From: a plasmid
Length of the DNA: 64,000 bases
Sequence record: CP071152.1
Reading direction: 5' to 3' (one strand)
A program made the translations under genes and the position numbers. Below, piece after piece: positions 8,658 through 62,898 of the stretch; within the stretch, counting starts at the first letter, position 1, and each line of letters opens with the position of its first letter. The notes under the pieces are model-generated. The model did no database searches and had not been told where the DNA came from. It saw nothing but the letters and a program-made list of their open reading frames with translations.

Positions 8658-8676
8658 GACTATCCCATGGGGATTA
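8658..8676. promoter_or_regulatory. operator-like inverted repeat ACTATCC-catgg-GGATTAT (weaker copy of the AACTATCC-N5-GGATAGTT box)
   Basis: Sequence match, upstream of the ORF starting at 8727. Confidence 0.35.
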
Positions 8677-8726
8677 TATATTGCATTTATCAAATGACCG
8701 CACATGACCGCCACTTGGAGATAGCC

Positions 8727-20835: not shown

Positions 20836-21464
20836 GATATACTGGATCAATAACTAACTAAGGCTTCAATATACATTTTCTCATCTGAGGGTAGCGCGCT
20901 AGATCTTTAGATCTAACGCATTTCTATCCAAAATCGAGTTATGCTGAGTATGATAATTTATTCCTCTCCCCCCACTCTGTGGAGCTTACGAAGATCAGAC
21001 TGTAATGCAATTGCTGGATTAGAAGCTGATCACTCCCAGATTGGCAACACCACCCTACAGGCCTATCAGAAAAATTTCGCGTTCCTAGAAGGTCTTCCTC
21101 TGACCGACCCGCAACGAGTGTGTTTATTGGGCGTGCGGGCCGACACACGCCAAAAGTTCAGGGATAATCGGTAACGCAGCGCCAGAACCACTCATCTGTC
21201 AGCCAATTAAACCTTAATAGAGCGCAGGTCAAGTATCGGAGAGCTTATCTTGGAAGACCTGCTGCAGGTTATCCGCGAAGAGGCAGGCTTTTACTCGTTT
21301 GGTCAGTAGCTAAAAACCGGGCTTGGCTTTGTAAGGTGACAGAATAACCATCGCTGCGATCACATTCGTAGCAAACACCAAACGGTAAGCTCATCTGATC
21401 GTGACGAAGAACCATTGCATAATTATTTTTTCGAGTTGGACCTTGACAAGGAAAGTAGAAAAAG

Positions 21465-28604: not shown

Positions 28605-28688
28605 TGTAAGAGACAACGTCAGGCCAAACACCTCGTTCCGCAATGTGTACCAGGGGCGTCCGATTTGGGATGTTATTGGCTGATCGAT

Positions 28689-30471
28689 TTGACATCCTCC
28701 CCCACCTTAGCGCTTCGCGTCACAGGAGGGGGATTCCCATTACTGGGTGATAGCTGCTCGCGCAGTACCGGGTTCCTGCTTCATCGGGCGGCCTGATTGC
28801 ACCACGCCTCCACAGGCTAAAACGGCGTGTCCGCCGCTAAAATATTGCGAGCGCCGTTCACATCGGCGTTCGCCTCATAACCACACGCAGCGCATTTAAA
28901 CTGGCTTTGCGTCTGGCGGTTATCCTTCGCAGTATGCCCACAACAGGCGCACTGCTGGCTCGTGTAGGCCGGGTTTATCGCCAACACCTGACCGCCTCGC
29001 CATGCCTGCTTATATTCGAGCTGGCGGCGCAGCTCAAACCAGCCCTGATCTAATATCGAACGATTCAGCCCTGATTTTGCCCGGACGTTGCGCCCCGGCT
29101 GGCTGGTCGTGCCCGCTGCTGATTTTGACATGCTGGCAACCTTCAAATCCTCAATGACGATCATCGCGTGGTTTTTGCTGATAGTCGTTGTGACCTTGTG
29201 AAGGTAATCGCGGCGGGTATTGGCGATATGTGAGTGCAGCCGCTGGATCTTGGCTTTTGTTTCTTCCAGTTGCTGCTGAACTTTACCTTTTGCTCAACTG
29301 GCGTTGGAGCCTTGCCAGCTTGGTCTGATTGGTTTTGAAGCTGTTGACGGGCTCAAACACCGTGCCATCTGACAGGGTTGCGAGCTTGGCGATCCCGCAT
29401 CTAGCCCGACCATTGAGCCGGAGGGTGAATTGGCTCAAGCGTCTCCTGCTCGACCTGAAAGGAGATATACCAGTGCCCGGCTGCTTGGCTGACGGTCGCG
29501 TTTTAATTTTCCTTCAACTGGCTGGGACTGACGGAACTTGACCCACGCCAGCCCGGCAGGCAGCTTCACTCGACCCTTTTCAAGGCGGCAATACTTGTCG
29601 AAGTTGACGAACCGGATAGCGTCGCGGTTGTCGCTTTTTTCTTGAATACGGGTGCCTTGGCGGCGAGTTTCTTATCAAAGCAGCGCATCCACGCGCCATG
29701 CAAATCCTTGAGCTTCTGCTGGAGGTTGTCGGTATATGCCTCGGCCAGAAAGGCCATTTCTGGGTCTTTCTTCCAACTGGTGAGCATCCTGTTCAGCTCA
29801 AAGGCAGAAGGCAGTTTTCGCCAGCATCCAGAATGCGTTTGGTTTCTGCCAGCCCGTGATTCCAGACATAACGAGCACAACCGCCCAACTGGCGCAGGCG
29901 TTGCGCTTGTTGTTCGGTCGGTTCGAGTCGGAATTTGTAGGCTTTCAGAATTTGCATTTAGCGCTCAGTGTGTAGCATTATTGCCATATCTATTAAGCCC
30001 GATTGAGTGACAGAATGCAATTCACTAAAATTAATAAATCACGCCATGCGGCCTACGTTTTGCACGTACATTTGGTGTTTATCACCAAGTATCGAAAGCC
30101 GATATTGGGGGATCTACATCACGCTTCCTTCGGTCAGTGTGCGGCAGAGGTTTGCAGAGATTTTGGTGCGGAACTGAAAGAGTGTGACGGAGAGGCTGAT
30201 CATGTTCACATGCTGATAGAGTACGCGCCAACGGTGCAGCTATCGGTACTGGTGAACTCGTTAAAGGCGGTCACATCAAGGCGACTGCGTAATGAATTTC
30301 TGGACTTGAGAGGTGCTTACAGCAAACCCGTACTCTGGTCACGCTCTTACTTTGCGGGCTCTTGCGGCGGAGCACCGTTGGAGGTGATCAAGCAATACAT
30401 TCAAAACCAGCGGGCTGACGCCCGGCGAAATTCCCCTTCCACCTACGTCGGAGGGAGTCCCCTTTCGCATT
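28689..30471. mobile_element. IS200/IS605-family element, copy 1 (divergent tnpA/tnpB)
   Basis: Shares the ...GGGGGAGGATGTCAA end and the CCATCTTAAATGCGAAAGGGGACTC... end with copies at 37308..39094 and 46706..48505. Confidence 0.7.
28817..29957 (-). pseudogene. tnpB: tnpB (IS605 OrfB) decayed by multiple frameshifts
   Basis: N-terminus MQILKAYKFRLEPTEQQ... then a stop. The C-terminal zinc-finger/RuvC-III part NPAYTSQQCACCGH...[19 protein letters not shown] is in a separate ORF. Confidence 0.65.
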
Positions 30472-30653
30472 TAAGATGGCCCGTCGCTATCATGTGGGCA
30501 GTGGAGTTCCACAAGATGATAGCCAGTCGGTGGCTTGGCTCAACAAGGCCGCCGATCTCGGCCACACCGAGGCCCAATACGCAATGGCCGTGCGCTATTT
30601 CAACGGCACCGGCGTTCCTCAGGACTACCTCCATGCAAGGTACTGGTGCATGA
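30015..30653 (+). CDS. tnpA: IS200-like Y1 transposase TnpA with C-terminal read-through extension
   Basis: HVHLVF (HuH) and Y motifs. Compared with the other two copies, 1 nt is missing at the ...QNQRG stop, giving an extension of about 80 aa. Confidence 0.6.
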   Translation: MQFTKINKSRHAAYVLHVHLVFITKYRKPILGDLHHASFGQCAAEVCRDFGAELKECDGEADHVHMLIEYAPTVQLSVLVNSLKAVTSRRLRNEFLDLRGAYSKPVLWSRSYFAGSCGGAPLEVIKQYIQNQRADARRNSPSTYVGGSPLSHLRWPVAIMWAVEFHKMIASRWLGSTRPPISATPRPNTQWPCAISTAPAFLRTTSMQGTGA

Positions 30654-35519: not shown

Positions 35520-35987
35520 TCACTTCATGAGGGCGGCCTGGGGATTGAAGACGAACTGATCGTCATAATTGCTCAGGTTGACCTGATTCTCTCTTACACA
35601 ATCCGCCATCGCGCCCCACAGAGTCATGAACTCGAACGGGCAGCTTTCACCGTTGGGGGCGATCCAGACGTAGCGGTTGTTCTCGGTCTGGTGCAGGAAG
35701 TAGCCCAGCACTTCGAGGTACTTGCCAAGGCTCTCAAGGTCGGCCTCATTCGGCTGGCTAACGTCATCGAGCCATTGGCTGCAACTGCACGTACCCCCGC
35801 CGGGGAACGCCACACCCTGCCCTTCACACAGGTTGCCTTCGAGGCACACCACCAAATCGCATTCGCCGTTGCGTTGCAGGGCAACGAGAGTAAAGGCATC
35901 AGTTGAATTGGCCGCCTGCACAACATCCATGAAGGTGTGGTTGTTGTCGAAGTCGGTTGAGATAACGGTAAACGCTTGGTGGGTCAT
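35520..35987 (-). CDS. hypothetical protein
   Basis: RBS ggaggc before the ATG. An operator box lies about 55 nt upstream. Confidence 0.45.
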   Translation of the reverse strand: MTHQAFTVISTDFDNNHTFMDVVQAANSTDAFTLVALQRNGECDLVVCLEGNLCEGQGVAFPGGGTCSCSQWLDDVSQPNEADLESLGKYLEVLGYFLHQTENNRYVWIAPNGESCPFEFMTLWGAMADCVRENQVNLSNYDDQFVFNPQAALMK

Positions 35988-36042
35988 GGCAGCCTCCGGT
36001 GTGTGGCGCAGAGCGTTTCTGCTCTCTTTATGAAACCATCAT

Positions 36043-36062
36043 ATTATCCGTTTGGGATAGTT
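36043..36062. promoter_or_regulatory. operator box ATTATCC-GTTTG-GGATAGTT
   Basis: 7-5-7 inverted repeat, upstream of minus-strand gene 35520..35987. Confidence 0.55.
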
Positions 36063-36256
36063 GCAAGCGTTTTACAGATGTTTATTTTTAACGGGTCTAT
36101 CCTGGCGTTCAGCCGGGCTTTCGGGCCGATACAAACGGACTTCTACCGCGCCATCCTACAATCATTGTCCATGAAGGAATGACACTGCAAACCGCGCCAA
36201 GCATGGGGTTCGGGGATAATCTGGGGTTCGAAAAAGAATTTTATAGAACGCATTTG

Positions 36257-36276
36257 ACTATCCGTTTGGGATAGTT
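36257..36276. promoter_or_regulatory. operator box GACTATCC-GTTTG-GGATAGTT
   Basis: Upstream of plus-strand gene 36324..36752. Confidence 0.55.
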
Positions 36277-36323: not shown

Positions 36324-36752
36324 ATGAGCAAGACCTATATCGCCCAAGTGCATCACCAGAATGAGTTCAGCAGCAGCGAGATCGCTACGTTCGTCAATAC
36401 CCTGACCGGCGTGGACATTGCCCGCATCAAAGCACTGGCAAACGTGTGTAGCGTAACCAAGGCGGCGTATATCGAAGATTGGTACTACGGAGGGAATTGG
36501 TCGGAGGTGAGCTATGAAGACCTGCGCAGTGAGGGGAAGAGTCATGACGAAGCACTGGATGAGGTCGAAGATCAATGTGCCCGCGTTGAGTGCGTGAAGC
36601 TGCGCGTCTGCAAGGATTACTTCTACTTCACGGCCATCCCCAAACACTATGACTCGACCTGTGAAATGCACACCGCATGGACGAGCGTCGCCGACCTCGA
36701 TAACGACGACCCGCTGATCCTGTTTGACATAGAGTTTGAGGAGGCCAAGTGA
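36324..36752 (+). CDS. hypothetical protein (paralog A)
   Basis: 142 aa. Paralogous to 36830..37252 (IARIKALA/IARIRELA, LRVCKDYFYFTAIP/LRVSKEYFQFTCIP). Confidence 0.45.
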   Translation: MSKTYIAQVHHQNEFSSSEIATFVNTLTGVDIARIKALANVCSVTKAAYIEDWYYGGNWSEVSYEDLRSEGKSHDEALDEVEDQCARVECVKLRVCKDYFYFTAIPKHYDSTCEMHTAWTSVADLDNDDPLILFDIEFEEAK

Positions 36753-36829
36753 TCGCCATCACCCCAGCTAGGCGACTACCCAACCCGATCATTTAATGCC
36801 GCGACCACGACCACTGAGAGAGCTGAATC

Positions 36830-37252
36830 ATGCCAAAAACTCTGATTGCCGATGCTTATCACCTTAACGGCTTTGGCACCTGTGAGATCCAAACACTGCT
36901 GGCCCTGTTGAGCGATACCAAGATCGCCCGCATCCGAGAGTTAGCTGCCGCTTGCGCGTCCCTCGATGTGAGCTGGATTGAAGTCGAGGATGACGACATC
37001 ATTTGGTCTTCCGAGCAACTTGATGGGCTGGAGGCTCAATGCGAGGACATAGAGCACGTTATGGAGAGCCTGGCGGATAATGAGGTGCCCACCCAAAGTA
37101 GCCAGCTCAGGGTCAGCAAAGAGTATTTTCAGTTCACCTGCATCCCGGAGCATCCGTGCTTTGGTGGCGAGGTGTATATCGAGAGCCACCCCATCTCAGA
37201 CCTCGATAGCCAGCCGACGCTGCTCACCTGCCTTGATAGCCATGACGCTTAA
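36830..37252 (+). CDS. hypothetical protein (paralog B)
   Basis: Tandem paralog of the upstream gene. Confidence 0.45.
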   Translation: MPKTLIADAYHLNGFGTCEIQTLLALLSDTKIARIRELAAACASLDVSWIEVEDDDIIWSSEQLDGLEAQCEDIEHVMESLADNEVPTQSSQLRVSKEYFQFTCIPEHPCFGGEVYIESHPISDLDSQPTLLTCLDSHDA

Positions 37253-37369
37253 TCCCACGACCACCAATCCCACCGACCGATGCAGGCTTCGGCCTGCCAT
37301 AAGGATGACCATCTTAAATGCGAAAGGGGACTCCCTCCGACGTAGGTGGGAGGGGAATTTCGCCGGGCG

Positions 37370-37768
37370 TCAGCCCCGCTGAATGTATTGCTTGATCACC
37401 TCCAACGGTGCTCCGCCGCAAGAGCCCGCAAAGTAAGAGCGTGACCAGAGTACGGGTTTGCTGTAAGCACCTCTCAAGTCCAGAAATTCATTACGCAGTC
37501 GCCTTGATGTGACCGCCTTTAACGAGTTCACCAGTACCGATAGCTGCACCGTTGGCGCGTACTCTATCAGCATGTGAACATGATCAGCCTCTCCGTCACA
37601 CTCTTTCAGTTCCGCACCAAAATCTCTGCAAACCTCTGCCGCACACTGACCGAAGGAGGCGTGATGCAGATCCCCCAATATCGGCTTTCGATACTTGGTG
37701 ATAAACACCAAATGTACGTGCAAAACGTAGGCCGCATGGCGTGATTTATTAATTTTAGTGAATTGCAT
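37370..37768 (-). CDS. tnpA: IS200-like TnpA
   Basis: Identical core to copy 1. Normal stop ...QYIQRG. Confidence 0.7.
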   Translation of the reverse strand: MQFTKINKSRHAAYVLHVHLVFITKYRKPILGDLHHASFGQCAAEVCRDFGAELKECDGEADHVHMLIEYAPTVQLSVLVNSLKAVTSRRLRNEFLDLRGAYSKPVLWSRSYFAGSCGGAPLEVIKQYIQRG

Positions 37769-37825
37769 TCTGTCACTCAATCGGGCTTAATAGATATGGC
37801 AATAATGCTACACACTGAGCGCTAA

Positions 37826-39043
37826 ATGCAAATTCTGAAAGCCTACAAATTCCGACTCGAACCGACCGAACAACAAGCGCAACGCCTGCGCCAGTTGGGC
37901 GGTTGTGCTCGTTATGTCTGGAATCACGGGCTGGCAGAAACCAAACGCATTCTGGATGCTGGCGAAAACTGCCTTCTGCCTTTGAGCTGAACAGGATGCT
38001 CACCAGTTGGAAGAAAGACCCAGAAATGGCCTTTCTGGCCGAGGCATATACCGACAACCTCCAGCAGAAGCTCAAGGATTTGCATGGCGCGTGGATGCGC
38101 TGCTTTGATAAGAAACTCGCCGCCAAGGCACCCGTATTCAAGAAAAAAGCGACAACCGCGACGCTATCCGGTTCGTCAACTTCGACAAGTATTGCCGCCT
38201 TGAAAAGGGTCGAGTGAAGCTGCCTGCCGGGCTGGCGTGGGTCAAGTTCCGTCAGTCCCAGCCAGTTGAAGGAAAATTAAAACGCGACCGTCAGCCAAGC
38301 AGCCGGGCACTGGTATATCTCCTTTCAGGTCGAGCAGGAGACGCTTGAGCCAATTCACCCTCCGGCTCAATGGTCGGGCTGGATGCGGGATCGCCAAGCT
38401 CGCAACCCTGTCAGACGGCACGGTGTTTGAGCCCGTCAACAGCTTCAAAACCAATCAGACCAAGCTGGCAAGGCTCCAACGCCAGTTGAGCAAAAGGTAA
38501 AGTTCAGCAGCAACTGGAAGAAACAAAAGCCAAGATCCAGCGGCTGCACTCACATATCGCCAATACCCGCCGCGATTACCTTCACAAGGTCACAACGACT
38601 ATCAGCAAAAACCACGCGATGATCGTCATTGAGGATTTGAAGGTTGCCAGCATGTCAAAATCAGCAGCGGCACGACCAGCCAGCCGGGGCGCAACGTCCG
38701 GGCAAAATCAGGGCTGAATCGTTCGATATTAGATCAGGGCTGGTTTGAGCTGCGCCGCCAGCTCGAATATAAGCAGGCATGGCGAGGCGGTCAGGTGTTG
38801 GCGATAAACCCGGCCTACACGAGCCAGCAGTGCGCCTGTTGTGGGCATACTGCGAAGGATAACCGCCAGACGCAAAGCCAGTTTAAATGCGCTGCGTGTG
38901 GTTATGAGGCGAACGCCGATGTGAACGGCGCTCGCAATATTTTAGCGGCGGGACACGCCGTTTTAGCCTGTGGAGGCGTGGTGCAATCAGGCCGCCCGAT
39001 GAAGCAGGAACCCGGTACTGCGCGAGCAGCTATCACCCAGTAA
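37826..39043 (+). pseudogene. tnpB: tnpB decayed (same lesions as copy 1)
   Basis: ATG MQILKAYKF... then stop after ...ENCLLPLS. Downstream fragments are in other frames. Confidence 0.65.
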
Positions 39044-39765
39044 TGGGAATCCCCCTCCTGTGACGCGAAGCGCTAAGGTGGGGGAGGATGTCAAGAGTTA
39101 CAACCAAGCAGAACCGACCAGCCACGAACGCGCGGAATTGGCCGAACGCGCCGTCCGATACTTTGTAGGGACAGTCTTCAAGGGACGTTCACCCACCACG
39201 CTGCACGACGACGACTTGACCGATGCCATGTCTGACCTCATCTGCGATCTGATGCACTACGCCAACCAGCAAGGGCTGGACGCCGAATATATGCTGATGC
39301 GGGCCAAGATGAACTATGGGCTCGAAGTGTCGGATGAACCAGTGTTAGACGAGTGAAATGTAGTCTCTTTGTAATACAAAATCGCCGCCGTTCTCGACCA
39401 CTTTTTGTATTTCATTTGTATTACACCAGCCATCTGGAGCGCCGCTAAATACTGGAGTACAGGCTGTTTTCCTCGAAGGACTTCGGCAACCTAAACCCCG
39501 GTGACGACCGCAATGGCCAGCATCCACCGCCCGGTGGGGTAAGGCCGTTACAAGCCCCCCTCCATGAAGGACATCGAGAGCACCAGAACGGTTCACGGTG
39601 ATTGATGCCCTGCCCCAAGCCTGCCGTCCCTCGGGACTACCGTGTAGCCACCAAACCAAGACGCGGCGCGGCTCAGAAGGCAACAACCGTGATCTCGGGA
39701 CTCGCACACCACGCGCCAATTGCGAGATAATGTGAGAATGGAACCCACTACAACAAGCAGGACAC

Positions 39766-41099: not shown

Positions 41100-41426
41100 T
41101 TAACTGACATAGCGCCGGATCTGCACCAGTAGCGACTCCGGCAGGGTATTACTGGTACAAGCCAGCACATCATCGAGGGTAAGCCGTATCGGTCTTTTGT
41201 AGGCGTTAGCGGCCCCTATCTCCGACTCCATCCATCGCACAGCTAAAGCCAAGTTCGCAAATTGCCGCATCCCACAAAAGCCCAGTCGGTGGCCCAATGT
41301 GACGCCACGAAATTGCACTTGATAGTGCTGCGGGATCCGCTTTACCAGCAACAACAGGGACGGCTTATAAAGCGGCGTAGACCGCCGCATAGTACGGCCA
41401 AGCTCATCATAGAAGGGGTTTACCAT
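41100..41426 (-). CDS. hypothetical protein
   Basis: RBS ggaggag before the ATG. Coupled to the upstream gene. Confidence 0.4.
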   Translation of the reverse strand: MVNPFYDELGRTMRRSTPLYKPSLLLLVKRIPQHYQVQFRGVTLGHRLGFCGMRQFANLALAVRWMESEIGAANAYKRPIRLTLDDVLACTSNTLPESLLVQIRRYVS

Positions 41427-41986
41427 CACTCCTCCGCCTCGTCGTCGTCATAGAAAAAGCCCTGATACTCGCAGAGGCTAGACGGCCCAAAATCTTCATA
41501 GATGGCGTCAGGATTGAACGAGAACTTGAGCGGATAAGGGACGGTGATCTGTTCCGAAACCTCAATCCGCTCGGCCAACCCCTGCTCCAGAGCAGCATTG
41601 ACAGAGAGCCCGCCAAACTCGTCACAGGGTACGCTGTATTGAATCGGCAGATGGGTCGCGGTGGGCACCGCCAACTGACGCATGAAGACCGAGAACAAGG
41701 CCCCGTCAGCCACCCGCTTAACCACAGAGCCCACATCGAGGCTGATCCCCAGCATCACCAACGATTGCTCAGACATGGGCTCAGTAATCCCCAATTCGCT
41801 CTTATTCATCCGGCCAAGCCACTCGTAACAATCGACTCCAGCAAATTTGCCGTACCCGGAATAACTTGGCTCGTAAATAGCCGGTTTACCATCGGGTTGA
41901 AGCATATATACAGGACGGCATCTATCGGTTTGATCGTTAGCGATAGATTCGTTGGTATCGCACGTTTTCCAGCTAAAGAAACCCAT
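41426..41986 (-). CDS. hypothetical acidic-tailed protein
   Basis: RBS aagggg before ATG MGFFSWKTCDT.... An operator box lies upstream at about 42197. Confidence 0.4.
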   Translation of the reverse strand: MGFFSWKTCDTNESIANDQTDRCRPVYMLQPDGKPAIYEPSYSGYGKFAGVDCYEWLGRMNKSELGITEPMSEQSLVMLGISLDVGSVVKRVADGALFSVFMRQLAVPTATHLPIQYSVPCDEFGGLSVNAALEQGLAERIEVSEQITVPYPLKFSFNPDAIYEDFGPSSLCEYQGFFYDDDEAEE

Positions 41987-42196
41987 ATATAGCCCCTTAT
42001 GTAGTGGCGACATTAGGTGATTACCTGATGCCCAGACATAGGCACACCTCAGCCGCATATTTGCTGATTGGCGTAGTTGTTCATCTAATGCCGCACTGGA
42101 ATGCTGATTGGTGCCCTGATCACTCTGTACGTGGACATGTTCATCGCACCGCTATGACAGATGCAGCATGTTCAAGCCGATCTGATAAACGCATTC

Positions 42197-42216
42197 TATA
42201 TCTGAATGGGATAGTT
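42197..42216. promoter_or_regulatory. operator box TATATCT-GAATG-GGATAGTT
   Basis: Upstream of minus-strand operon 41100..41986. Confidence 0.45.
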
Positions 42217-42433: not shown

Positions 42434-42453
42434 ACTATCCGCTTGGGATAGCG
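42434..42453. promoter_or_regulatory. operator box ACTATCC-GCTTG-GGATAGCG
   Basis: Upstream of plus-strand operon 42494..43790. Confidence 0.5.
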
Positions 42454-42493: not shown

Positions 42494-42757
42494 ATGACCA
42501 ATGATGCGATTTGCCTGGAGCGTGCCCGCCGCTTTTCCGATGAACTGATTGCGAACACTGAGTCGCACTTACAGATCGGCGAAGAATACGGCCCGGCGGT
42601 GCTCGGCCTGTGCCTCTATTTGCAACAGACGCTTCTTGACCCCAATCCAGCTCCGGTGGAAGTGACCGATAGCTACAACCACCATGAGATCACCTATTTC
42701 TATTACATCATCGACTCACTTCCATCACGGGTTGAGTGGCGTCGTTTCATTGCCTGA
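42494..42757 (+). CDS. hypothetical protein
   Basis: RBS ggaga before the ATG. Confidence 0.4.
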   Translation: MTNDAICLERARRFSDELIANTESHLQIGEEYGPAVLGLCLYLQQTLLDPNPAPVEVTDSYNHHEITYFYYIIDSLPSRVEWRRFIA

Positions 42758-42784
42758 TCGCGGATTCATATACGAGGAAACACC

Positions 42785-43129
42785 ATGGGCACCTTGACTG
42801 TTCTATCCAAAGACCCGGCCTACCTGCCGCAGGTATCTTCCAATTCGAACGGCGTGGAATGCTGGAGCGGGCTGCACGTTGACCAACTGACCCCAGAGCT
42901 GACTCAACGCCTCTATGAGTACGCTCGTAGCGAGGGTTACTTGCAGGGCTGGAACGATTCTGTTTACGAGCGGCTGGGCGAAAACAGACAGAGCCCCTTC
43001 CACCCCGCTCTGCTCAACGGGGAGCCACAGCGGGTGTGGCAACAGAGCTACGAGGTGGGCCGGACTGAGCAAAGCACGCCAGCGGATTACCAGCGTGATG
43101 ATGATGAGGACTATTACCGGGATGAGTAG
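42785..43129 (+). CDS. hypothetical protein
   Basis: RBS acgaggaa before the ATG. Confidence 0.45.
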   Translation: MGTLTVLSKDPAYLPQVSSNSNGVECWSGLHVDQLTPELTQRLYEYARSEGYLQGWNDSVYERLGENRQSPFHPALLNGEPQRVWQQSYEVGRTEQSTPADYQRDDDEDYYRDE

Positions 43130-43205
43130 GCAGTGAGCTCATTCTGAATCTCCTCCAACGACATTGCGTTGGCACGAACACACCCTACAAAACAGGCGAC
43201 CCTTC

Positions 43206-43790
43206 ATGGCCATAGATCACACCGACCCGAACTATATCGACATGGCGATCACCAAGGCGCACCTTGCCGCCGGTGATTGGGCACTGAACGAGTTCCATCA
43301 TTCAAACCCATTCAATTCCTACTACTTTTACCTCCGGGATTTTGAGACTGATCTGAGCATCATGTTCAGTATCAGTCAGGAGGACTTCTACAGACCGCTG
43401 CCCAAATCGTTTAGCTTGACCGAAGTGACTGATGGCCTGGGCTACTTGCTGAGGCGTTATATCGACAACGGTAAGTTCCAAGATCATGAGCAGCAGTGCT
43501 TCGGGGTAGCCCTAGCCGTTTATGCAAAACACACTCAGGCGTATAAGCAATGGCTGAAAACCGCCACGAAAGATTCCAAGCTGCACATGGTCATCTCTCG
43601 CTACCCCTTGAAAAGCCCCGAAGCCATGCTCCGTCCATTCATCGTCAACCCGCCCACCACGATACTGCCAGGCAGAGACTTCACCAAACTGACGGGTGAT
43701 GTCTTTGACATGGATATGCAGCGCCACCCTGAGTGGTTCGAGATCTCCATGCTCTACGATCAATCAGGGCAAGCATTCAAATCGTCTTGA
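43206..43790 (+). CDS. hypothetical protein
   Basis: ORF with internal ATG MAIDHTD. Confidence 0.4.
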   Translation: MAIDHTDPNYIDMAITKAHLAAGDWALNEFHHSNPFNSYYFYLRDFETDLSIMFSISQEDFYRPLPKSFSLTEVTDGLGYLLRRYIDNGKFQDHEQQCFGVALAVYAKHTQAYKQWLKTATKDSKLHMVISRYPLKSPEAMLRPFIVNPPTTILPGRDFTKLTGDVFDMDMQRHPEWFEISMLYDQSGQAFKSS

Positions 43791-44040
43791 GCACTGTACT
43801 TGATGGCTTGCGGCATGTTCGTTGTAGTTCAAATGTAATACAAAACGAGGTGCGAGAATGACCATTGCAGGGCTCAAAACCGATCACTATCCGTGGTGAG
43901 CCGATCCCTGCTTGGTTCGTGGATGAGCGTGGCCATCGCGATGAGCGTGAATCGTGGCTGTCCTTGGTGGAGAAGGAGGGTTTGCGCAGTCACAACTCAG
44001 TGATGCAAAGTCGTTTTCGGAATCGCCATCCGAGGTTTTA

Positions 44041-44379
44041 ATGAGCGAAATAATCGCTGATGCAATGAGACAGTACATGGTTGGGTCAATCACTACCGGA
44101 GCAGACCTGCTACAGATCCGCCACATGGTAGGCTTAGACCAAATCACATTTGCCAAACTCATTGGTAAATCGACCAGCGCAATCATGAGAGCGGAGGATT
44201 CGAACGTACTGCCCAGGGACATAGCATTGCTGGCCAAGGGTGTGATGATTGAGCACATGAGTAATCTGGCACTGCAACACATGCGCGAGATGCAGATCTC
44301 GCCACAGGATAGGGCCGTAATCGCTCGTGTCTTTTGCACGAGGATGGCGAACGAGCTGCGGGTCGAATGCGCTGCCTGA
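44041..44379 (+). CDS. XRE-family HTH protein
   Basis: ...GLDQITFAKLIGKSTSAIMRAED HTH. Paralog of 52769..53152. Confidence 0.5.
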   Translation: MSEIIADAMRQYMVGSITTGADLLQIRHMVGLDQITFAKLIGKSTSAIMRAEDSNVLPRDIALLAKGVMIEHMSNLALQHMREMQISPQDRAVIARVFCTRMANELRVECAA

Positions 44380-44717
44380 TGGCTCCTGGAACGGGGGAGT
44401 GATCCCCCAGTACACATCATGAAGTCCACGAGGGAACTTCTGCCCGCCCTCGGGTGACATGGCCACGACGGTCGTCACCGGTGATCTCTCCTCACTCCTG
44501 CCGTGTCATCCGTGTCCTTGAATGACCGCCCACAACCATCTCCCCTCTTGCCCCGTCACTACCAATGTTTGTATTACAATTGGACTACATCGAGGGTGTT
44601 GAACGACCAAATATATGTATTACACATGAACTACAAATGTAGTGGTTAAACAGCGGTAGTGATGGTTTTGGCGATCTTGTAACAGCGACAACCATGGATT
44701 AGACTTGATTTTCAATC

Positions 44718-45557
44718 ATGGACTTTCAGACAAACGAGGAATTGATGGCAACGAAACTGGCAGTGATAAATCAGAAGGGGGGCTGCGGAAAAACGACCAC
44801 GGTGATCAATCTGGCTGCCCGCTATGCAGAGCAGGGAAAGCGAGTCCTAGCGTTTGATCTCGACCCGCAAGGAAACCTCAGCACAGTGCTATCCGGCGGC
44901 AAATACGATTTCTCCATGACCGTTGCTGACCTGTTCGACAAGCCTAAGCGGGTCAACATTCAGGACGCCATCATCCAGGCAGAGGCAAATAAGGAGCCGA
45001 TCCCCAATCTGTTCCTGGTGCCAGCGGATATACGCCTTTCCCGTGTCATCGAGCAAAGCCTGACCCAGATACACCGCGAGCGGATCTTGATGCGCCACCT
45101 AGCCAAGGTGGATGACCAATACGACCTTATCATACTGGACTGCCCTCCAAATCTGTCACTCACCTCAACGAATGCCATGATGGCCGCTGACTTGTTCCTT
45201 ATCCCGGTAGATGGTGGTTCGTTCAGTCTGAACGGCTTGGCCGACCTACTCGATGCCCTTGAGGAAGTGAAGGAAAGCCCAAACGTCCCCTACTACGCAT
45301 TCAGGAACGAGCGGGCCAAGCAGAACAAACTTATCAACGACTTCTTAGATTCGCAGCTAGACGCGCTTAGGGATCGGATTGGCCCGCACGGTAAGGGAGG
45401 CATACTCACCTCTTGTATCCGGCGGGAAGAGGCTATTGGGCAGGCCAGCGTCACCAGTGTGCCTCTCACGTTTTATCGCCCTGGGGCGCTCGCGACCATG
45501 GACTACAAGGAGCTAGCGGCAGAAGTAATGAACAAGGTTAATGAATTACAAAGGTAA
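44718..45557 (+). CDS. parA: ParA/Soj-family partition ATPase
   Basis: Deviant Walker A KLAVINQKGGCGKTTT. Confidence 0.8.
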   Translation: MDFQTNEELMATKLAVINQKGGCGKTTTVINLAARYAEQGKRVLAFDLDPQGNLSTVLSGGKYDFSMTVADLFDKPKRVNIQDAIIQAEANKEPIPNLFLVPADIRLSRVIEQSLTQIHRERILMRHLAKVDDQYDLIILDCPPNLSLTSTNAMMAADLFLIPVDGGSFSLNGLADLLDALEEVKESPNVPYYAFRNERAKQNKLINDFLDSQLDALRDRIGPHGKGGILTSCIRREEAIGQASVTSVPLTFYRPGALATMDYKELAAEVMNKVNELQR

Positions 45558-45563
45558 CAGAAA

Positions 45564-45851
45564 ATGTCAAAGCCACTTGTTGGTCCCGCGATACGTTGGG
45601 ATAAAGAAAAGGATAAGGACAAAGAGCCAATAACCACAGTCGGCTCCCGCCGCAACGTAACGACTGGCACAGCGCCGACCCCCATTAGGCTGACCCCTGA
45701 TGAGCGAGCAGAATTGAACTTGTGGGTCGATGAATTACAGCGCCTCACCGCTAAAAAGTTGACGGCAGCTAAGGTCTTTCGTGGACTGCTCCACATGCGC
45801 AAGAGCATTAATGCCGGGAAACTGTTAGATGCAATAAAGGACATCACGTAG
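45564..45851 (+). CDS. small RHH partition protein (ParG-like centromere binder)
   Basis: 95 aa, 6 nt after parA. ...LTPDERAELNLWVDEL is RHH-like. Confidence 0.5.
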   Translation: MSKPLVGPAIRWDKEKDKDKEPITTVGSRRNVTTGTAPTPIRLTPDERAELNLWVDELQRLTAKKLTAAKVFRGLLHMRKSINAGKLLDAIKDIT

Positions 45852-46766
45852 CTCTCCAGGAGCACTGCCTTTACCCGCAGCCCCGTTCATTGAGCGGGGC
45901 TTTTGCCTTCTTGGTGATCACCCCGGTAAACCGGCCACTCGCCCAGCACGGTGAAACTCCACCTGGGTGTGAGAACGACCGCGCGGTGCCGACAACCGTT
46001 GATCTCCTCGAAGGACGGTATCATCTCGGTTGACCCGGAGCTCATCCAGGATCGCCAGGAACACCGCCGGTGTGGCCAGCTCCTCGGCGGCGTGCGACGC
46101 GGGTAGGGGAGGCGTCTGCGTGGATGGTGGACAACCACGACCCGTATTACCTGGTGATCACCCCGGTCAGGCCGGGCTCCACGGCAGTGGCCAGGTCACC
46201 CCACGAGCGTGCAGCTCTCCCTTGGGAGATGTCACCGTCCTCCAAGGAAAACCATGTGCACCTCGCACCGGGAAATCGTCCAGGAACGCAGCGTCGTCTC
46301 CTTGACGGTGTGCCACGCCGGTAGCCCAGCATGAGCGTCATCGGTGGACAACGAGGGCAGGTGATCACCTGGTATATCGGCCATGACGCCAGTGGCCATG
46401 TCACGCAAGAAGCCGGAGCAAATGGAAGTCTCACCACAGTCAGGTAGGACTTGGCAAACCCGTCTTTGTAATACAAGTGAAATACATCAAGGCAAGTCTG
46501 ATGCCCGTCCTTTGCGGACTTTAGCTGTGCCTTTGGCTGGAGCTCCGCCAGGTGGGCACGCCAGTGCTGGAGTACGACGACCATTCGCTGGGCCGGTACC
46601 AGACGCTCGGCCTGAGCTGCATGAGGCATTGAATCGAGGCCTGAAACCGCTAGGATTGCTGCCTAACATCGCCTACCGGGATCGTGACACAATAATTTTG
46701 AAACCCATCTTAAATGCGAAAGGGGACTCGCTCCGACGTAGGTGGGAGGGGAATTTCGCCGGGGCG

Positions 46767-47171
46767 TCAGCCCCGCTGGTTTTGAATGTATTGCTTGATC
46801 ACCTCTAACGGCGCACCGCCGCAAGAGCCCACAAAGTAAGAGCGTGACCAGAGTACGGGTTTGCTGTAAGCACCCCTCAAGTCCAGAAATTCATTACGCA
46901 GTCGCCTTGATGTGACCGCCTTTAACGAGTTCACCAGCACCGATAGCTGCACTGTTGGGCCGTACTCTATCAGCATGTGAACATGATCAGCCTCTCCGTC
47001 ACACTCTTTCAGTTCCGCACCAAAATCTCTGCAAACCTCTGCCGCATACTGACCTAAGGAAGCGTGATGAAGATCCCCCAATATCGGCTTTCGATACTTG
47101 GTGATAAACACCAAATGTACGTGCAAAACGTAGGCCGCATGGCGTGATTTATTAATTTTAGTGAATTGCAT
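46767..47171 (-). CDS. tnpA: IS200-like TnpA
   Basis: Core identical to the other copies, with stop ...QNQRG. Confidence 0.7.
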   Translation of the reverse strand: MQFTKINKSRHAAYVLHVHLVFITKYRKPILGDLHHASLGQYAAEVCRDFGAELKECDGEADHVHMLIEYGPTVQLSVLVNSLKAVTSRRLRNEFLDLRGAYSKPVLWSRSYFVGSCGGAPLEVIKQYIQNQRG

Positions 47172-47228
47172 TCTGTCACTCAATCGGGCTTAATAGATAT
47201 GGCAATAATGCTACACACTGAGCGCTAA

Positions 47229-48454
47229 ATGCAAATTCTGAAAGCCTACAAGTTCCGACTCGAACCGACCGCCCAACAAGCGCAACGCCTGCGCCAGTTG
47301 GGCGGTTGTGCTCGTTATGTCTAGAATCACGGGCTGGCAGAGACAAAGCGCATTCTGGATGCTGGCGAAAAACTGCCTTCTGCCTTTGAGCTGAACCGGA
47401 TGCTCACCAGTTGGAAGAAAGACCCAGAAATGGCCTTTCTGACCGAGGCATATACCGACAACCTCCAGCAGAAGCTCAAGGATTTGCATGGCGCGTGGAT
47501 GCGCTGCTTTGATAAGAAACTCGCCGCCAAGGCACCCGTATTCAAGAAAAAAAGCGACAACCGCGACGCGATCCGGTTCGTCAACTTCGACAAGTATTGC
47601 CGCCTTGAAAAGGGTCGCGTGAAGCTGCCTGCCGGGCTGGCGTGGGTCAAGTTCCGTCAGTCCCAGCCAGTTGAAGGGAAAATTAAAACGCGACCGTCAG
47701 CCAAGCAGCCGGGCACTGGTATATCTCCTTTCAGGTCGAGCAGGAGACGCTTGAGCCAATTCACCCCTCCGGCTCAATGGTCGGGCTAGATGCGGGGATC
47801 GCCAAGCTCGCAACCCTGTCAGACGGCACAGTGTTTGAGCCCGTCAACAGCTTCAAAACCAATCAGACCAAGCTGGCAAGGCTCCAACGCCAGTTGAGCA
47901 AAAAGGTAAAGTTCAGCAGCAACTGGAAGAAACAAAAAGCCAAGATCCAGCGGTTGCACTCACATATCGCCAATACCCGCCGCGATTACCTTCACAAGGT
48001 CACAACGACTATCAGCAAAAACCACGCGATGATCGTCATTGAGGATTTGAAGGTTGCCAGCATGTCAAAATCAGCAGCGGGCACGACCAGCCAGCCAGGG
48101 CGCAACGTCCGGGCAAAATCAGGGCTGAATCGTTCGATATTAGATCAGGGCTGGTTTGAGCTGCGCCGCCAGCTCGAATACAAGCAGGCATGGCGAGGTG
48201 GTCAGGTGTTGGCGATAAACCCGGCCTACACCAGCCAGCAGTGCGCCTGTTGTGGGCATACTGCGAAGGATAACCGCCAGACGCAAAGCCAGTTTAAATG
48301 CGCTGCGTGTGGTTATGAGGCGAACGCCGATGTGAATGGCGCTCGCAATATTTTAGCGGCGGGACACGCCGTTTTAGCCTGTGGAGGCGCGGTGCAATCA
48401 GGCCGCCCGATGAATCAGGAACCCGGTACTGCGCGAGCAGCTATCACCCAGTAA
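47229..48454 (+). pseudogene. tnpB: tnpB, least-decayed copy (amber at codon 32 plus 1-nt deletion in an A-run)
   Basis: TGG becomes TAG at about 47320. KIKNAT is expected, but aaaac (A4) gives a -1 shift near 47690. The rest reads ...NPAYTSQQCACCGH...[11 protein letters not shown]. Confidence 0.65.
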
Positions 48455-48620
48455 TGGGAATCCCCCTCCTGTGACGCGAAGCGCTAAGGTGGGGGAGGAT
48501 GTCAAAGGATCTGAACCTATGATTCGTATACGTGCGTTGAGCAGCTGCTGCCGAGCTAAAGTCACAGAAGAAGCACTGGGGGGGGAGAGACAGGTGAGGT
48601 GAGGGGAGGGAGTGATAGAT

Positions 48621-49184: not shown

Positions 49185-49590
49185 GCGCGAAATCCTTGCT
49201 CACGCTTAACCAACACAGAGCACATCGACATCCTGCATGTGCTCTACAACCATCAGCCAAACATAAGATCAAGAAATCCACTGCTACGGCGTGCTTGTAC
49301 TACCTGAACAACGTCTACAGCCAGCCTGGAAGGCGATGTTAACTTCATATTTTTATTGAAATAACATATTCAGAAGTGCTTCGCAAAGGTTTACTTTCAT
49401 TATTGGGTAGGCTCCAACAAAATCCGTAGGTTATGCTGTGATTTGAGTAAATCACCTCTAGATCATCCCCTACGGATAGTTAGGCGTGAAAAACGACAAA
49501 ATTGCTCTTATACCTTCACTGTCTACGCTCGCTGGAAAAACCGTGTCCGGTGTCGCAGATTGAGAAGTCCGACCAGAAACAGCCACATAA

Positions 49591-52768: not shown

Positions 52769-53152
52769 ATGGGCGAAGATATGGTTGAACTGACGGCAGC
52801 AGACATCCGTCAGTATTTGACTGCCCCCATCAGAACTGGACAAGACCTGGTACGTGTCCGTTCGATGCTCGGGCTATCACGCGAAGTGTTTGCAATGACC
52901 ATTGGCAAGAGCACCAAGACCGTAGCCAAGGCAGAAGAAGCCAGCGTGCTTCCTACCGACATAGCTCTTTTGGCACGCGGGCAAATGGTCACCCACATCA
53001 GCAACGTAGCAGCAGACTACATGGAAGAGCTGGATTTGAATGCCGACTCTATGCTGGTGATGGCGCAGTTATTCAGCGAACGCCTGCTGGGCGGCCAGAA
53101 GGTGATCTCTGAACACGAGTTTGCCACATTGAAAGAGCTGAGCGAAAAGTAA
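52769..53152 (+). CDS. XRE-family HTH protein (paralog of 44041..44379)
   Basis: RBS gaggt before the ATG. ...GLSREVFAMTIGKSTKTVAKAEE. Confidence 0.5.
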   Translation: MGEDMVELTAADIRQYLTAPIRTGQDLVRVRSMLGLSREVFAMTIGKSTKTVAKAEEASVLPTDIALLARGQMVTHISNVAADYMEELDLNADSMLVMAQLFSERLLGGQKVISEHEFATLKELSEK

Positions 53153-55541: not shown

Positions 55542-55561
55542 AACTATCCCAAACGGATATA
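55542..55561. promoter_or_regulatory. operator box AACTATCC-CAAAC-GGATATA
   Basis: 30 nt upstream of gene 55590. Confidence 0.55.
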
Positions 55562-57997: not shown

Positions 57998-58127
57998 TGC
58001 CTCAAACTGGGATCGGCCCGCCAGAAGGCGGGTTCGGTCTGTGAGAAAATGGGCTATATGGACAGTGCAATAAATGCCTGTTACTGTGCTGATGGGATTG
58101 ATATAAGTGATTATTAAGGCAAGTGCA

Positions 58128-60211: not shown

Positions 60212-60230
60212 ACTATCCCCACGGGATAAC
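60212..60230. promoter_or_regulatory. operator box ACTATCC-CCACG-GGATAAC
   Basis: About 40 nt upstream of minus-strand gene 58918..60174. Confidence 0.5.
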
Positions 60231-61076: not shown

Positions 61077-61100
61077 GGCAACCTTTGATAAATGTATGTG

Positions 61101-61119
61101 CTATGCCGACAGGATAGTT
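61101..61119. promoter_or_regulatory. operator-like box CTATGCC-GACAG-GATAGTT (weaker)
   Basis: Half-site GGATAGTT conserved. Confidence 0.35.
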
Positions 61120-62808: not shown

Positions 62809-62827
62809 AACTATCCTGAAAGGACAC
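62809..62827. promoter_or_regulatory. operator-like half box AACTATCC-TGAAA-GGACAC
   Basis: 30 nt upstream of minus-strand operon 62778..61336. Confidence 0.35.
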
Positions 62828-62898
62828 GCACAGGTAAAGTATAAGGCGGATTCGTGGTCCAGGCTAGTATTCGATCATTCCAATCTGCGCTCCTTGGG

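What the first reader, a model, noticed from the sequence alone, without database searches (positions are those of the whole stretch)
36043..36276. Recurrent 7-5-7 inverted-repeat operator AACTATCC-N5-GGATAGTT upstream of at least 9 transcription units (a regulon of the element)
Good copies lie at 36043, 36257, 42434 and 55542, with slightly weaker ones at 42197 and 60212. Half-site or degenerate copies lie at 8658, 61101 and 62809. Each sits 30-60 nt upstream of a gene start on either strand (for 55542, the bet-ssb operon). They are often followed by TTTACAG/TTTGTAAAG-like elements. This suggests one element-encoded regulator coordinating many backbone operons.
Basis: seen in the sequence. 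Interest (0 to 1): 0.65.

Follow-up and report, generated by a model that had tools for sequence, protein, structure and literature searches.

The report
Plasmid-wide palindromic operator in core promoters
A palindromic DNA site (TATCC-N5-GGATA) sits inside about 20 promoters of a little-studied Aeromonas resistance megaplasmid, including those of its transfer genes; it most likely lets one plasmid protein switch these genes off together, an ordinary kind of control in a new, uncharacterised version.

Summary
The window is about 99.7% identical to Aeromonas plasmid pMCR5_045096 (MOBH relaxase, F-type transfer genes). It holds 11 copies of a dyad with an invariant core, TATCC-N5-GGATA. Ten score 14 or more with a position weight matrix (PWM), against 0.13 expected, and all are intergenic.

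The motif is larger than described. It is a palindrome of about 51 bp, with arms TTGAWAAAYGC 15-25 bp from the centre.

Plasmid-wide there are about 16-20 sites. These include the traE, traD, traA and traV/C promoters outside the window. A relative whose proteins are only 40-77% identical (pAeme3) carries 20 sites, many before orthologous genes and, where compared, at nearly the same distance from the start codon. A third lineage (pE31A/pMC64A) has none.

Comparing the three lineages shows the dyad lies inside core promoters. It sits either in the -35/-10 spacer (recT) or with its left half acting as the -10 (traE, traA, hyp277). Its centre is only 22-45 nt from many start codons.

That fits a repressor operator. 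It does not fit an AcaCD/SetCD-type class II activator box, although the box resembles one, and no AcaCD homologue is encoded.

The regulator is unidentified. The XRE-like protein at 52769-53152 is the best, but weak, candidate.

Verdict: a new member of a known kind, of moderate interest.

The parts
36043..36061 (-). Operator core (ATTATCC GTTTG GGATAGT), centre 36052. The extended palindrome spans 36027-36077. It faces the minus-strand gene 35520-35987 (155 aa, acidic), and its centre is 65 nt from that gene's ATG.
   Evidence: PWM score 25.0. The tool's own promoter scan finds TTGCAA-N17-TATGAT at 36066->36038, with the dyad in the spacer.
36257..36275 (+). Operator core (ACTATCC GTTTG GGATAGT), centre 36266, and the best copy in the plasmid. 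It faces gene 36324-36752 (142 aa, acidic), and its centre is 58 nt from the ATG.
   Evidence: score 27.1. The orthologous gene in pAeme3 (RS21850) also has a site 57 nt upstream.
8659..8677 (+). Operator (ACTATCC CATGG GGATTAT) upstream of the 98-aa gene 8727-9023 and the 89-aa Cys-rich gene that follows it.
   Evidence: (score 22.8). I read TTGAGA-N17-TATATT by eye here.
42197..42215 (-). Operator (rc: ACTATCC CATTC AGATATA) facing leftwards. The downstream gene start is uncertain: ORF 41426-42058, or the shorter annotated 116-aa form.
   Evidence: score 20.7. The promoter scan finds TTGTAA-N16-TAGAAT at 42220->42193.
42434..42452 (+). Operator (ACTATCC GCTTG GGATAGC) upstream of the operon 42494-45851. 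That operon encodes 87-aa, 114-aa and 194-aa proteins, the 141-aa XRE-like protein, ParA and a basic 95-aa protein.
   Evidence: (score 24.9).
49462..49480 (-). It lies between the 706-aa gene and the 171-aa gene 48669-49184, 287 nt upstream of the latter.
   Evidence: score 19.5; this site was not used to train the PWM. pAeme3 has a site in the same inter-gene position (14236).
55543..55561 (+). Operator (ACTATCC CAAAC GGATATA) inside the recT-ssb promoter, 38 nt from the recT ATG at 55590.
   Evidence: score 23.9. Three-lineage footprint: TTGCGA-N17-TATTCT (this plasmid), TTGAAG-N17-TATCAT (pAeme3) and TTGAAC-N17-TAATGT (pE31A, which has no dyad).
58083..58101 (+). Weaker operator (ACTGTGC TGATG GGATTGA) upstream of the unannotated basic ORF 58107-403. 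The likely start is an ATG at about 58128, inferred by comparison with the pAeme3 orthologue.
   Evidence: score 14.8. The pAeme3 orthologue RS22645 also has a site 32 nt upstream.
60212..60230 (-). Operator (rc: GTTATCC CGTGG GGATAGT) 47 nt upstream of the PD-(D/E)XK nuclease gene 58918-60174.
   Evidence: (score 22.8). I read TTGTTA-N16-TAATAT by eye here.
61100..61118 (-). Operator (rc: ACTATCC TGTCG GCATAGC) 33 nt upstream of the 277-aa gene 60243-61076.
   Evidence: score 20.8. The promoter scan finds TTGCCA-N17-TATCCT. The three-lineage footprint is TTGCCA/TTGATT/TTGACT-N17-TATCCT/TATCCT/TAGCGT, so the left half-site is the -10.
62810..62828 (-). Degenerate operator (+ strand: ACTATCC TGAAA GGACACG). 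It lies between the 79-aa membrane-protein gene 62539-62778 (41 nt away) and the dnaB-like gene that starts at about 62905 (86 nt away).
   Evidence: score 13.7. The pAeme3 orthologue RS22595 has a site 42 nt upstream.
52769..53152 (+). XRE-like HTH protein (127 aa by the annotated start; called XRE136 in this report). It lies upstream of the recT-ssb promoter, from which an IS200/IS605 insertion separates it in this lineage. It is the best available, but weak, candidate for the regulator.
   Evidence: Sub-threshold HTH matches. Homologues occur only in the seven plasmids of this family. It shares a C-terminal extension with the pAeme3 copy. Its own conserved dyad, TGTCC-N5-GGACA, lies at 52620-52636.

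Best explanation
The sites are operators for a plasmid-encoded sequence-specific DNA-binding regulator that controls most backbone operons together. These operons include:
- recT-ssb;
- a PD-(D/E)XK nuclease operon;
- several operons of small acidic proteins;
- outside the window, the transfer operons (traE-K-B, traD, traA, and the HTH-dsbC-traV-traC operon).

**Site anatomy (shown).**
- The core is a dyad, TATCC-N5-GGATA, with half-site centres 10 bp apart.
- AT-rich arms (TTGAWAAAYGC) flank it 15-25 bp from the centre.
- The arms keep their register with the dyad, not with the promoter hexamers.

I infer from this that the bound unit is larger than one dimer: a higher oligomer or two proteins.

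**Position (shown by comparing lineages).** The dyad always overlaps the core promoter, in one of two ways.
- It fills the -35/-10 spacer, with its centre at about -20.
- Or its left half (TATCCT) is itself the -10, with its centre at about -5.

**Mechanism (inferred).** Binding most likely excludes RNA polymerase. The plasmid's establishment and transfer genes would then be held off in an established host. They could fire together when the repressor is absent or inactivated, for example just after entry into a new cell. That last step is pure inference.

**Regulator.** Not identified. The XRE-like protein at 52769-53152 is the best candidate.
For: **Enrichment and location.**
- Searches show enrichment and an exclusively intergenic location.
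- pAeme3, which was not used to build the PWM, has 20 hits at score 14 or above, against 0.58 expected.

**Conservation.**
- pMCR5_045096 and pAeme3 share backbone proteins at only 40-77% identity.
- They nonetheless carry sites before orthologous genes, with near-identical centre-to-ATG distances in the pairs compared: recT 38/45, traD 34/32, traE 34/36 and 89/89, hyp277 33/32, hyp79 41/42, hyp255 22/25. The HTH599 pair differs more (36 against 72).
- The N-termini align where I could judge it (traD, traE, hyp277, hyp255), so those start codons are sound.

**Geometry.**
- The -35 and -10 hexamers are conserved in all three lineages, including the one without the dyad.
- They place the dyad in the spacer at recT, and on the -10/+1 at traE, traA and hyp277 (the tool's own promoter scan).
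- About a third of the sites lie 22-45 nt from a start codon, with a Shine-Dalgarno sequence in between.
- The only position with a -10-like signal facing the gene is +6..+11 from the centre. There is no signal near +30.

**Protein site rather than hairpin.** Mirrored positions show no covariation.

**Regulon content.** It matches plasmid control networks: transfer operons plus recombination and small acidic proteins.
Against: - There is no experimental datum: no transcription start sites, no binding assay, no expression data.
- Hexamer assignments are by consensus. The window as a whole is not enriched for sigma-70-like promoters.
- Several transfer-gene sites have weak -35/-10 elements and a degenerate right half. 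That pattern is what activator-dependent promoters look like.
- The box has the same 5-N5-5 dyad plan, with the same invariant CC/GG, as the AcaCD activator box of related IncA/C plasmids.
- No regulator could be tied to the motif.
  - The HTH proteins in the transfer operon keep an identical recognition helix in the motif-less lineage.
  - The XRE candidates are only about 45% identical between the two lineages that have the motif.
Confidence: 0.6

Rival explanations
1. The dyad is the box of a master activator of transfer. It would be a functional analogue of AcaCD (IncA/C) or SetCD (SXT/R391) that recruits RNA polymerase to weak promoters.
For: - The regulon content matches AcaCD/SetCD regulons: all transfer operons, a recT(bet)-ssb recombination module and many unknown genes (PMC4207636, PMC4344509).
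- AcaCD boxes are TGCCC-N5-GGGCA, the same 5-N5-5 dyad with invariant CC/GG. Some sites here carry TGTCC/GGACA halves.
- The traD and traE-distal promoters have poor consensus hexamers.
- The plasmid is a distant MobI/MOBH relative of IncA/C.
Against: - No AcaC, AcaD, FlhC or FlhD homologue was found by phmmer.
- Pfam or NCBIfam scans of roughly 50 proteins found none.
- A scan for Cys motifs found none.
- The record's own annotation lists none, whereas pRA1's AcaC is annotated as FlhC family.
- The SetCD box spans about -53 to -35 (PMC4344509). Here the centre lies 22-45 nt from the ATG at a third of the sites, with a Shine-Dalgarno sequence in between. Its register to conserved -35/-10 hexamers also varies.
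- No -10 signal appears at the distance expected for class II activation.
Confidence: 0.2
2. The site is composite and serves two factors. The inner dyad binds one protein. The outer arms (TTGAWAAAYGC) bind a second, lineage-wide factor or act as UP-like promoter elements. Regulation would then combine both inputs and could be positive at some sites and negative at others.
For: - The distal arm is much better conserved than the proximal arm.
- In the motif-less pE31A lineage, an arm-like palindrome (CATAAACGCT-N7-AGCGTTTATG) survives in the hyp277 promoter, and an AAAAACG stretch survives next to the recT -35.
- traE has two sites 53-55 bp apart in both lineages.
Against: - The arms keep a fixed register to the dyad in both promoter classes. 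That argues for a single bound unit.
- The apparent arm enrichment in pE31A was largely an artefact of IS copies.
Confidence: 0.12
3. The copies are not regulatory sites. They would be either a small mobile palindromic repeat (REP- or MITE-like), or a hairpin that works in single-stranded DNA or RNA, such as a single-strand promoter or a terminator.
For: - The unit is a palindrome of about 51 bp and could fold.
- The region carries leading-region-type genes (ssb, recT, small acidic proteins).
Against: - Mirrored positions show no compensatory covariation.
- Sequence outside the core and arms is unrelated between copies.
- Copies lie at orthologous positions in plasmids whose proteins are about 50% identical.
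- There is no Rfam match, and no T-run follows the sites.
Confidence: 0.04

Closest known systems
AcaCD boxes of IncA/C plasmids and SetCD boxes of SXT/R391 elements (FlhDC-type master activators of transfer; PMC4207636, PMC4344509)
   Same: - The host elements are related: MOBH relaxase, MobI, F-type transfer genes.
- One short motif precedes essentially every transfer operon, a recombination (bet/recT-ssb-exo) module and many unknown genes, about 15-20 copies per element.
- The AcaCD box is likewise a 5-N5-5 dyad with invariant CC...GG (TGCCC-N5-GGGCA).
   Different: - No AcaC/AcaD or SetC/SetD homologue is encoded here.
- The bases differ (TATCC/GGATA), and the PWM finds nothing in the 39-kb stretch of IncA plasmid pRA1 that was scanned.
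- The site lies inside the core promoter (centre about -20 or -5) rather than at -53..-35.
- Its register to the promoter varies.
- Extra arms at 15-25 bp either side of the centre have no counterpart in the published boxes.
Global repressor networks of broad-host-range plasmids: KorA/KorB operators of IncP-1 (RK2) and the ArdK/StbA/KorA-type network of IncW R388 (from my own knowledge, not tested here)
   Same: - A palindromic operator recurs at many backbone promoters and overlaps the -10 or -35.
- It coordinates maintenance, establishment and transfer genes.
- The logic is strong promoters held off by an element-encoded repressor.
   Different: - The operator sequence is unrelated.
- A TrfB/KorA-like protein exists only in pAeme3, not in this plasmid.
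- The partition proteins are not shared between the two lineages that have the motif.
- The host plasmids are MOBH megaplasmids of 190-250 kb.
Cro/C1 (XRE)-type repressor operators
   Same: - The site has dyad symmetry with half-site centres one helical turn apart.
- XRE-like HTH proteins are encoded on the element.
- One of them has its own conserved dyad of the same plan (TGTCC-N5-GGACA).
   Different: - Binding is untested.
- The extended 51-bp unit is larger than a single dimer site.
- About 20 dispersed operators is far more than a typical local XRE switch has.

Membership tests
AcaCD/SetCD (FlhDC-type) activator box | The element encodes an FlhC-like and an FlhD-like subunit (AcaC/AcaD or SetC/SetD). 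| tested here: not met
   - phmmer with E. coli FlhC/FlhD (sequences recalled from memory) and with pRA1 AcaC/AcaD against all six-frame ORFs of the plasmid and the window gave nothing better than E = 2.9.
- No FlhC-like CxxC...CxxC ORF of the right size exists.
- Pfam or NCBIfam scans of roughly 50 backbone proteins were negative.
- The record's annotation lists none, whereas pRA1's AcaC is labelled FlhC family.
AcaCD/SetCD (FlhDC-type) activator box | The box lies just upstream of, or overlapping, the -35 (about -53 to -35), at a fixed class II distance from the transcription start. | tested here: not met
   - The centre-to-ATG distance is 22-45 nt at about a third of the sites, with a Shine-Dalgarno sequence in between.
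- Conserved hexamers place the centre at about -20 (recT) or about -5 (traE, traA, hyp277).
- No -10 signal appears near +30.
- This is indirect evidence, because no transcription starts are mapped.
AcaCD/SetCD (FlhDC-type) activator box | The motif precedes the transfer operons and the recombination module of a MOBH element. | tested here: met
   Sites lie upstream of traE (two sites), traD, traA, the HTH-dsbC-traV-traC operon, recT-ssb and the PD-(D/E)XK nuclease gene. There is a weak half-site at traF.
AcaCD/SetCD (FlhDC-type) activator box | The sequence matches the published box (AcaCD: TGCCC-N5-GGGCA). | tested here: not met
   - The dyad plan is the same, but two of the five bases in each half differ.
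- The PWM built here finds no site at score 14 or above in the 39 kb of pRA1 held, which includes its traF promoter.
KorA/KorB-type global repressor operators | A palindromic operator is repeated at many backbone promoters and overlaps core promoter elements. | tested here: met
   The overlap is inferred from conserved hexamers, not from mapped transcription starts.
KorA/KorB-type global repressor operators | A cognate KorA (TrfB) or KorB (ParB) homologue is encoded, and the operator sequence is GTTTAGCTAAAC or TTTAGCSGCTAAA. | tested here: not met
   - A TrfB-related protein is present in pAeme3 only. tblastn against this plasmid and the window is negative.
- The operator sequence is unrelated. 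The KorA/KorB operator sequences are quoted from my own knowledge.
XRE (Cro/C1) repressor-operator pair | A dyad operator with half-sites about 10 bp apart, together with an XRE HTH protein that binds it. | tested here: inconclusive
   - The dyad geometry fits.
- HTH_3 is confirmed for the two transfer-operon proteins. The two paralogues at 43954 and 52769 give only sub-threshold matches.
- The phyletic pattern weakly favours the 52769 type.
- Binding cannot be tested with these tools.
Iterons or partition centromere | Direct repeats clustered next to a rep or par gene. | tested here: not met
   The copies are inverted repeats dispersed over more than 100 kb, each before a different gene.
Structured single-strand element (single-strand promoter, terminator, RNA hairpin) | Base pairing is maintained by compensatory changes. 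| tested here: not met
   At every variable position from 8 to 26 nt either side of the centre, mirrored positions pair no more often than shuffled columns do. There is no Rfam hit.

The most novel reading that the evidence does not exclude
This Aeromonas lineage may have kept the operator class of its IncA/C-SXT relatives while changing the rest of the control system. The retained class is a 5-N5-5 dyad with invariant CC...GG before every transfer operon. The proposed changes are:
- the FlhDC-type activator has been lost;
- the dyad has moved from the -35 flank into the core promoter;
- the dyad is now read by an unrelated XRE-type (or still unknown) oligomeric repressor.

Transfer control would thus have been rewired from activation to repression. 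The third lineage, which has lost all sites, would show the decay of that circuit.
Probability: 0.12. Interest if true: 0.65.

Novelty: new member of a known kind. Interest (0 to 1): 0.42.

Why it matters
These plasmids of 190-370 kb carry mcr-5, KPC-2 and many other resistance genes in Aeromonas from sewage and hospitals. I found no report on how their transfer is controlled. Full-text searches for pMCR5_045096 and pAeme3 returned only resistance-gene papers or nothing.

The site map gives a ready list of the promoters that are controlled together. It also yields a testable prediction: removing one regulator should derepress transfer and a set of small acidic 'establishment' proteins.

The lineage is related to IncA/C and SXT, yet it lacks their master activator and places the common site inside the core promoters. 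If confirmed, that would be a useful contrast for understanding how transfer control evolves in this plasmid superfamily.

It is not a new kind of mechanism.

Tried and rejected
**AcaCD/SetCD box.** This was my first idea once I saw the sites at the transfer operons and the published boxes. I rejected membership because no homologue is encoded and the geometry is wrong.

**FlhDC-box resemblance of the arms.** The arm pattern AAYGC-N-AAATAGCG is recalled from memory only, so I did not pursue it.

**A single fixed promoter model.**
- Treating the arm's TTGAWA as the -35 fails, because the spacing to any -10 is wrong.
- Treating the proximal arm as a -10 fails, because A2 and T6 are not conserved.

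**Regulator hunt.**
- The HTH protein in the transfer operon (599 aa) and its 112-aa paralogue keep an identical recognition helix in the motif-less lineage.
- The RHH-like protein at 12173-12397 has its own, different inverted repeat and no motif.
- The TrfB-like protein is present only in pAeme3.
- ParA and the small basic protein are not shared between lineages.
- H-NS is not sequence-specific (my own knowledge).
- Subtracting genes shared by pMCR5_045096 and pAeme3 but absent from pMC64A returned mostly target genes.

**Looking for more lineages.**
- The genome-contig scan found only a plasmid 100% identical over the query protein (A. rivipollensis p1).
- The search of 5.8 billion proteins with the XRE-like protein found only near-identical metagenome contigs carrying the same sites.

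**A replacement dyad in pE31A.** None was found. The repeated dyads there were not followed up, and the apparent arm enrichment came largely from IS copies.

**Other searches.**
- PDB sequence searches with three candidate proteins were uninformative.
- Structure prediction was not used, because it could not link a protein to the site.

Full report
**What the window is.**
- It is about 99.7% identical to Aeromonas hydrophila plasmid pMCR5_045096 (NZ_CP028567.2, 241 kb), apart from IS differences.
- One gene tested, the PD-(D/E)XK nuclease, is 100% identical to its copy on A. rivipollensis DSM 24593 plasmid p1.
- The plasmid has a MobH relaxase, a MobI(A/C)-like protein (28% identical to IncC MobI), F-type transfer genes and a RepB initiator.
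- In the plasmid collection the family comprises seven Aeromonas records in three lineages:
  - M: pMCR5_045096 and two others;
  - A: pAeme3 and a sibling;
  - C: pE31A and pMC64A.

- The written consensus, allowing up to 3 mismatches, gives 6 hits against 0.10 expected.
- I built a palindromic 23-mer PWM from nine sites. It separates nine window sites (scores 19.5-27.1, one of them not used in training) and two weaker sites (13.7-14.8) from background. Ten hits score 14 or above, against 0.125 in Markov-2 simulations.
- A count of all 5-mer dyads with spacers of 0-12 ranks TATCC-N5-GGATA joint first in the window.
- All sites are intergenic, where 27% of the sequence is intergenic (P about 2e-6).

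**The motif is larger than described.** I aligned 36 sites from plasmids M and A, each oriented towards its gene.
- TATCC (-7..-3) and GGATA (+3..+7) are nearly invariant, and the central base is A or T.
- A gene-distal arm, TTGAWAAAYGC, is conserved at -25..-15.
- Its gene-proximal mirror image is weaker; mainly TTT at +18..+20 survives.
- Mirrored positions show no compensatory covariation, and there is no Rfam match. This argues for a protein-binding dyad rather than a hairpin.

**The regulon extends beyond the window.**
- Scanning the whole 241-kb plasmid adds sites outside the window:
  - two before traE-traK-traB;
  - one in the 77-bp gap between a helicase-related gene and traD;
  - one before the pilin gene traA;
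  - one before a lipoprotein gene;
  - one before the operon encoding a 599-aa HTH protein, a DsbC-like protein, TraV and TraC;
  - a half-site at traF.
- Inside the window the controlled units are recT-ssb, a PD-(D/E)XK nuclease, a 277-aa protein, and several operons whose first products are small acidic proteins (pI 4-5).

**Conservation in a diverged relative.**
- pAeme3 shares backbone proteins with M at only 40-77% identity.
- It still has 20 sites at score 14 or above, against 0.58 expected.
- Many of these sites lie before orthologues of the M target genes.
- In most gene pairs compared, the centre-to-start-codon distances match those in M within a few nucleotides. The N-termini of traD, traE, hyp277 and hyp255 align, which validates those start codons.
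- Lineage C has no site at score 14 or above in the complete 283-kb pMC64A, nor in 113 kb of pE31A. This holds even though C's TraD is 84% identical to M's.
- At the positions of the traD, traE and traA sites, C shows sequences such as ACTATGC-GCTAA-GGTTAAA. I read these as decayed remnants.

**Where the site sits relative to the promoter.** Lineage C keeps the promoters but not the dyad, so a three-way comparison reveals the hexamers.
- *recT:* TTGCGA-N17-TATTCT (M), TTGAAG-N17-TATCAT (A) and TTGAAC-N17-TAATGT (C). The dyad fills the spacer in M and A, with its centre at about -20.
- *traE:* TTGACT-N16-TATCCT (M, A) and TTGACT-N15-TATCTA (C).
- *traA:* TTGACT/TTGACG, then 17-18 bp, then TATCCT (M, A) or TAACCT (C).
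- *hyp277:* TTGCCA/TTGATT/TTGACT-N17-TATCCT/TATCCT/TAGCGT.
- In traE, traA and hyp277 the left half-site is the -10, and the dyad centre lies at about -5.
- The tool's own consensus scan independently picks TTGCAA-N17-TATGAT at the 36043 site, TTGTAA-N16-TAGAAT at 42197 and TTGCCA-N17-TATCCT at 61101.
- Averaged over all sites, the only -10-like signal facing the gene is at +6..+11. There is none near +30.
- About a third of the sites have their centre 22-45 nt from the ATG, with a Shine-Dalgarno sequence in between.
- The arms keep their register to the dyad in both promoter classes. They therefore belong to the bound unit, not to the promoter.

**Mechanism.** A site that always overlaps the core promoter, but in varying register, is what a repressor operator looks like. 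An activator needs a fixed upstream position. I therefore favour a plasmid-encoded global repressor (confidence 0.6). The size of the unit (about 51 bp) suggests a higher oligomer or two proteins. That repression would be relieved on entry into a new host is inference only.

**Comparison with AcaCD/SetCD.**
- Published AcaCD boxes read TGCCC-N5-GGGCA (PMC4207636). This is the same dyad plan, and the regulon content is alike.
- SetCD boxes span about -53 to -35 and act as class II sites (PMC4344509).
- Here no AcaC, AcaD, FlhC or FlhD homologue is detectable, although pRA1's AcaC is recognised by standard annotation.
- The bases differ, and the position is inside the core promoter.
- The site may therefore work in the same regulatory niche, but it is not a member of that family. 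An activator reading remains a rival (0.2), mainly because some transfer-gene promoters have weak hexamers.

**Who binds it.** This is unresolved.
- The transfer-operon HTH proteins (599 aa and a 112-aa paralogue; HTH_3) keep the recognition helix NTYSKWERG in M, A and the motif-less C.
- The paralogue at 43954-44379 is 68% identical to the C-lineage copy and has no counterpart in A.
- The paralogue at 52769-53152 shares a C-terminal extension with the A-lineage copy. Its type therefore tracks the motif (present in M and A, absent from C), though all branches are only about 45% identical.
- All three lineages carry a dyad of the same plan about 150-200 nt upstream of this gene: TGTCC-N5-GGACA in M, TGTCC-N5-AGACA in A and GATCC-N5-GGACA in C. 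This family of proteins therefore plausibly reads TCC-N5-GGA dyads.
- Its homologues occur only in this plasmid family.
- Other candidates were set aside: the RHH-like protein (own different repeat), the TrfB-like protein (lineage A only) and the partition proteins (not shared).

**Novelty.** Full-text searches for the plasmid names and for transfer regulation in Aeromonas MOBH plasmids found no description of this motif. The kind of system, a global operator network on a conjugative plasmid, is well known. This is a new, uncharacterised member with an unusually extended site, in a lineage that lacks the activator used by its relatives.

Noticed in passing
window 52620-52636: A perfect dyad, TTGTCC-TCAAG-GGACAA, lies about 150 nt upstream of the XRE-like gene at 52769. 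Counterparts exist at the same place in pAeme3 (TGTCC-N5-AGACA) and in pMC64A/pE31A (GATCC-N5-GGACA). The tool also flags it as terminator-like on the minus strand. It is probably that gene's own operator.
   Followed up: partly
window 12110-12172 and 12173-12397: A 74-aa ribbon-helix-helix-like gene is preceded by a 14-bp inverted repeat: TTATTACACCTGTA at 12110 and TACAGGTGTAATAA at 12159. The gene is shared with pAeme3 and absent from pMC64A. It looks like a separate local autoregulator or antitoxin.
   Followed up: partly
loci L017, L018, L019-L024 (pE31A, pMC64A): This sister lineage has lost every copy of the motif while keeping the promoters. It also lacks several of the small acidic target genes. 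Its traG is split by an IS, and the plasmids are typed non-mobilizable. The circuit may be decaying there.
   Followed up: partly
window 35520-35987, 36324-37252, 8727-9306, 42494-43129: The genes behind the strongest operators encode small acidic proteins (pI 4.1-4.8) with no family match, including a tandem pair of paralogues (142 and 140 aa). They could be anti-restriction or other establishment functions, but this was not tested.
   Followed up: no
window 13685-24062: An inserted island carries a gamma-mobile-trio (GmtY recombinase, VPA1269-family protein, GmtX), followed by DUF2971, PIN-domain and 865-aa AAA ATPase genes. It looks like a defence or cargo island and has no motif copies.
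   Followed up: no
window 28688-30479, 37308-39100, 46705-48505, 53180-55434: There are three near-identical IS200/IS605 (ISAs26) copies and a fourth, different IS200/IS605 element. One of them sits between the XRE-like gene and the recT promoter. They may explain some of the other repeated dyads in the window; I did not check this.
   Followed up: partly
pMCR5_045096 record 195747-199449 (locus L003 7747-11449): The transfer operon encodes a 599-aa protein with an N-terminal XRE HTH and a large uncharacterised C-terminal part. This protein is conserved in all three lineages at about 41% identity. A 112-aa paralogue of the HTH domain alone is also encoded. Nearby is a 244-aa protein with a Gln/Pro-rich N-terminus and a C-domain that is 69% conserved. 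None has a known function.
   Followed up: partly
pAeme3 record start and end (loci L015/L014): The XRE-like gene of pAeme3 runs across the record origin and reads as frameshifted. mobI and a helicase gene are also unannotated there. This suggests assembly errors in that record rather than true pseudogenes.
   Followed up: no
locus L020 12729-26261 (pMC64A): pMC64A carries a complete type III-B CRISPR-Cas module (cas1, cas2, cmr1-6, cas6, csm6, a CARF protein).
   Followed up: no
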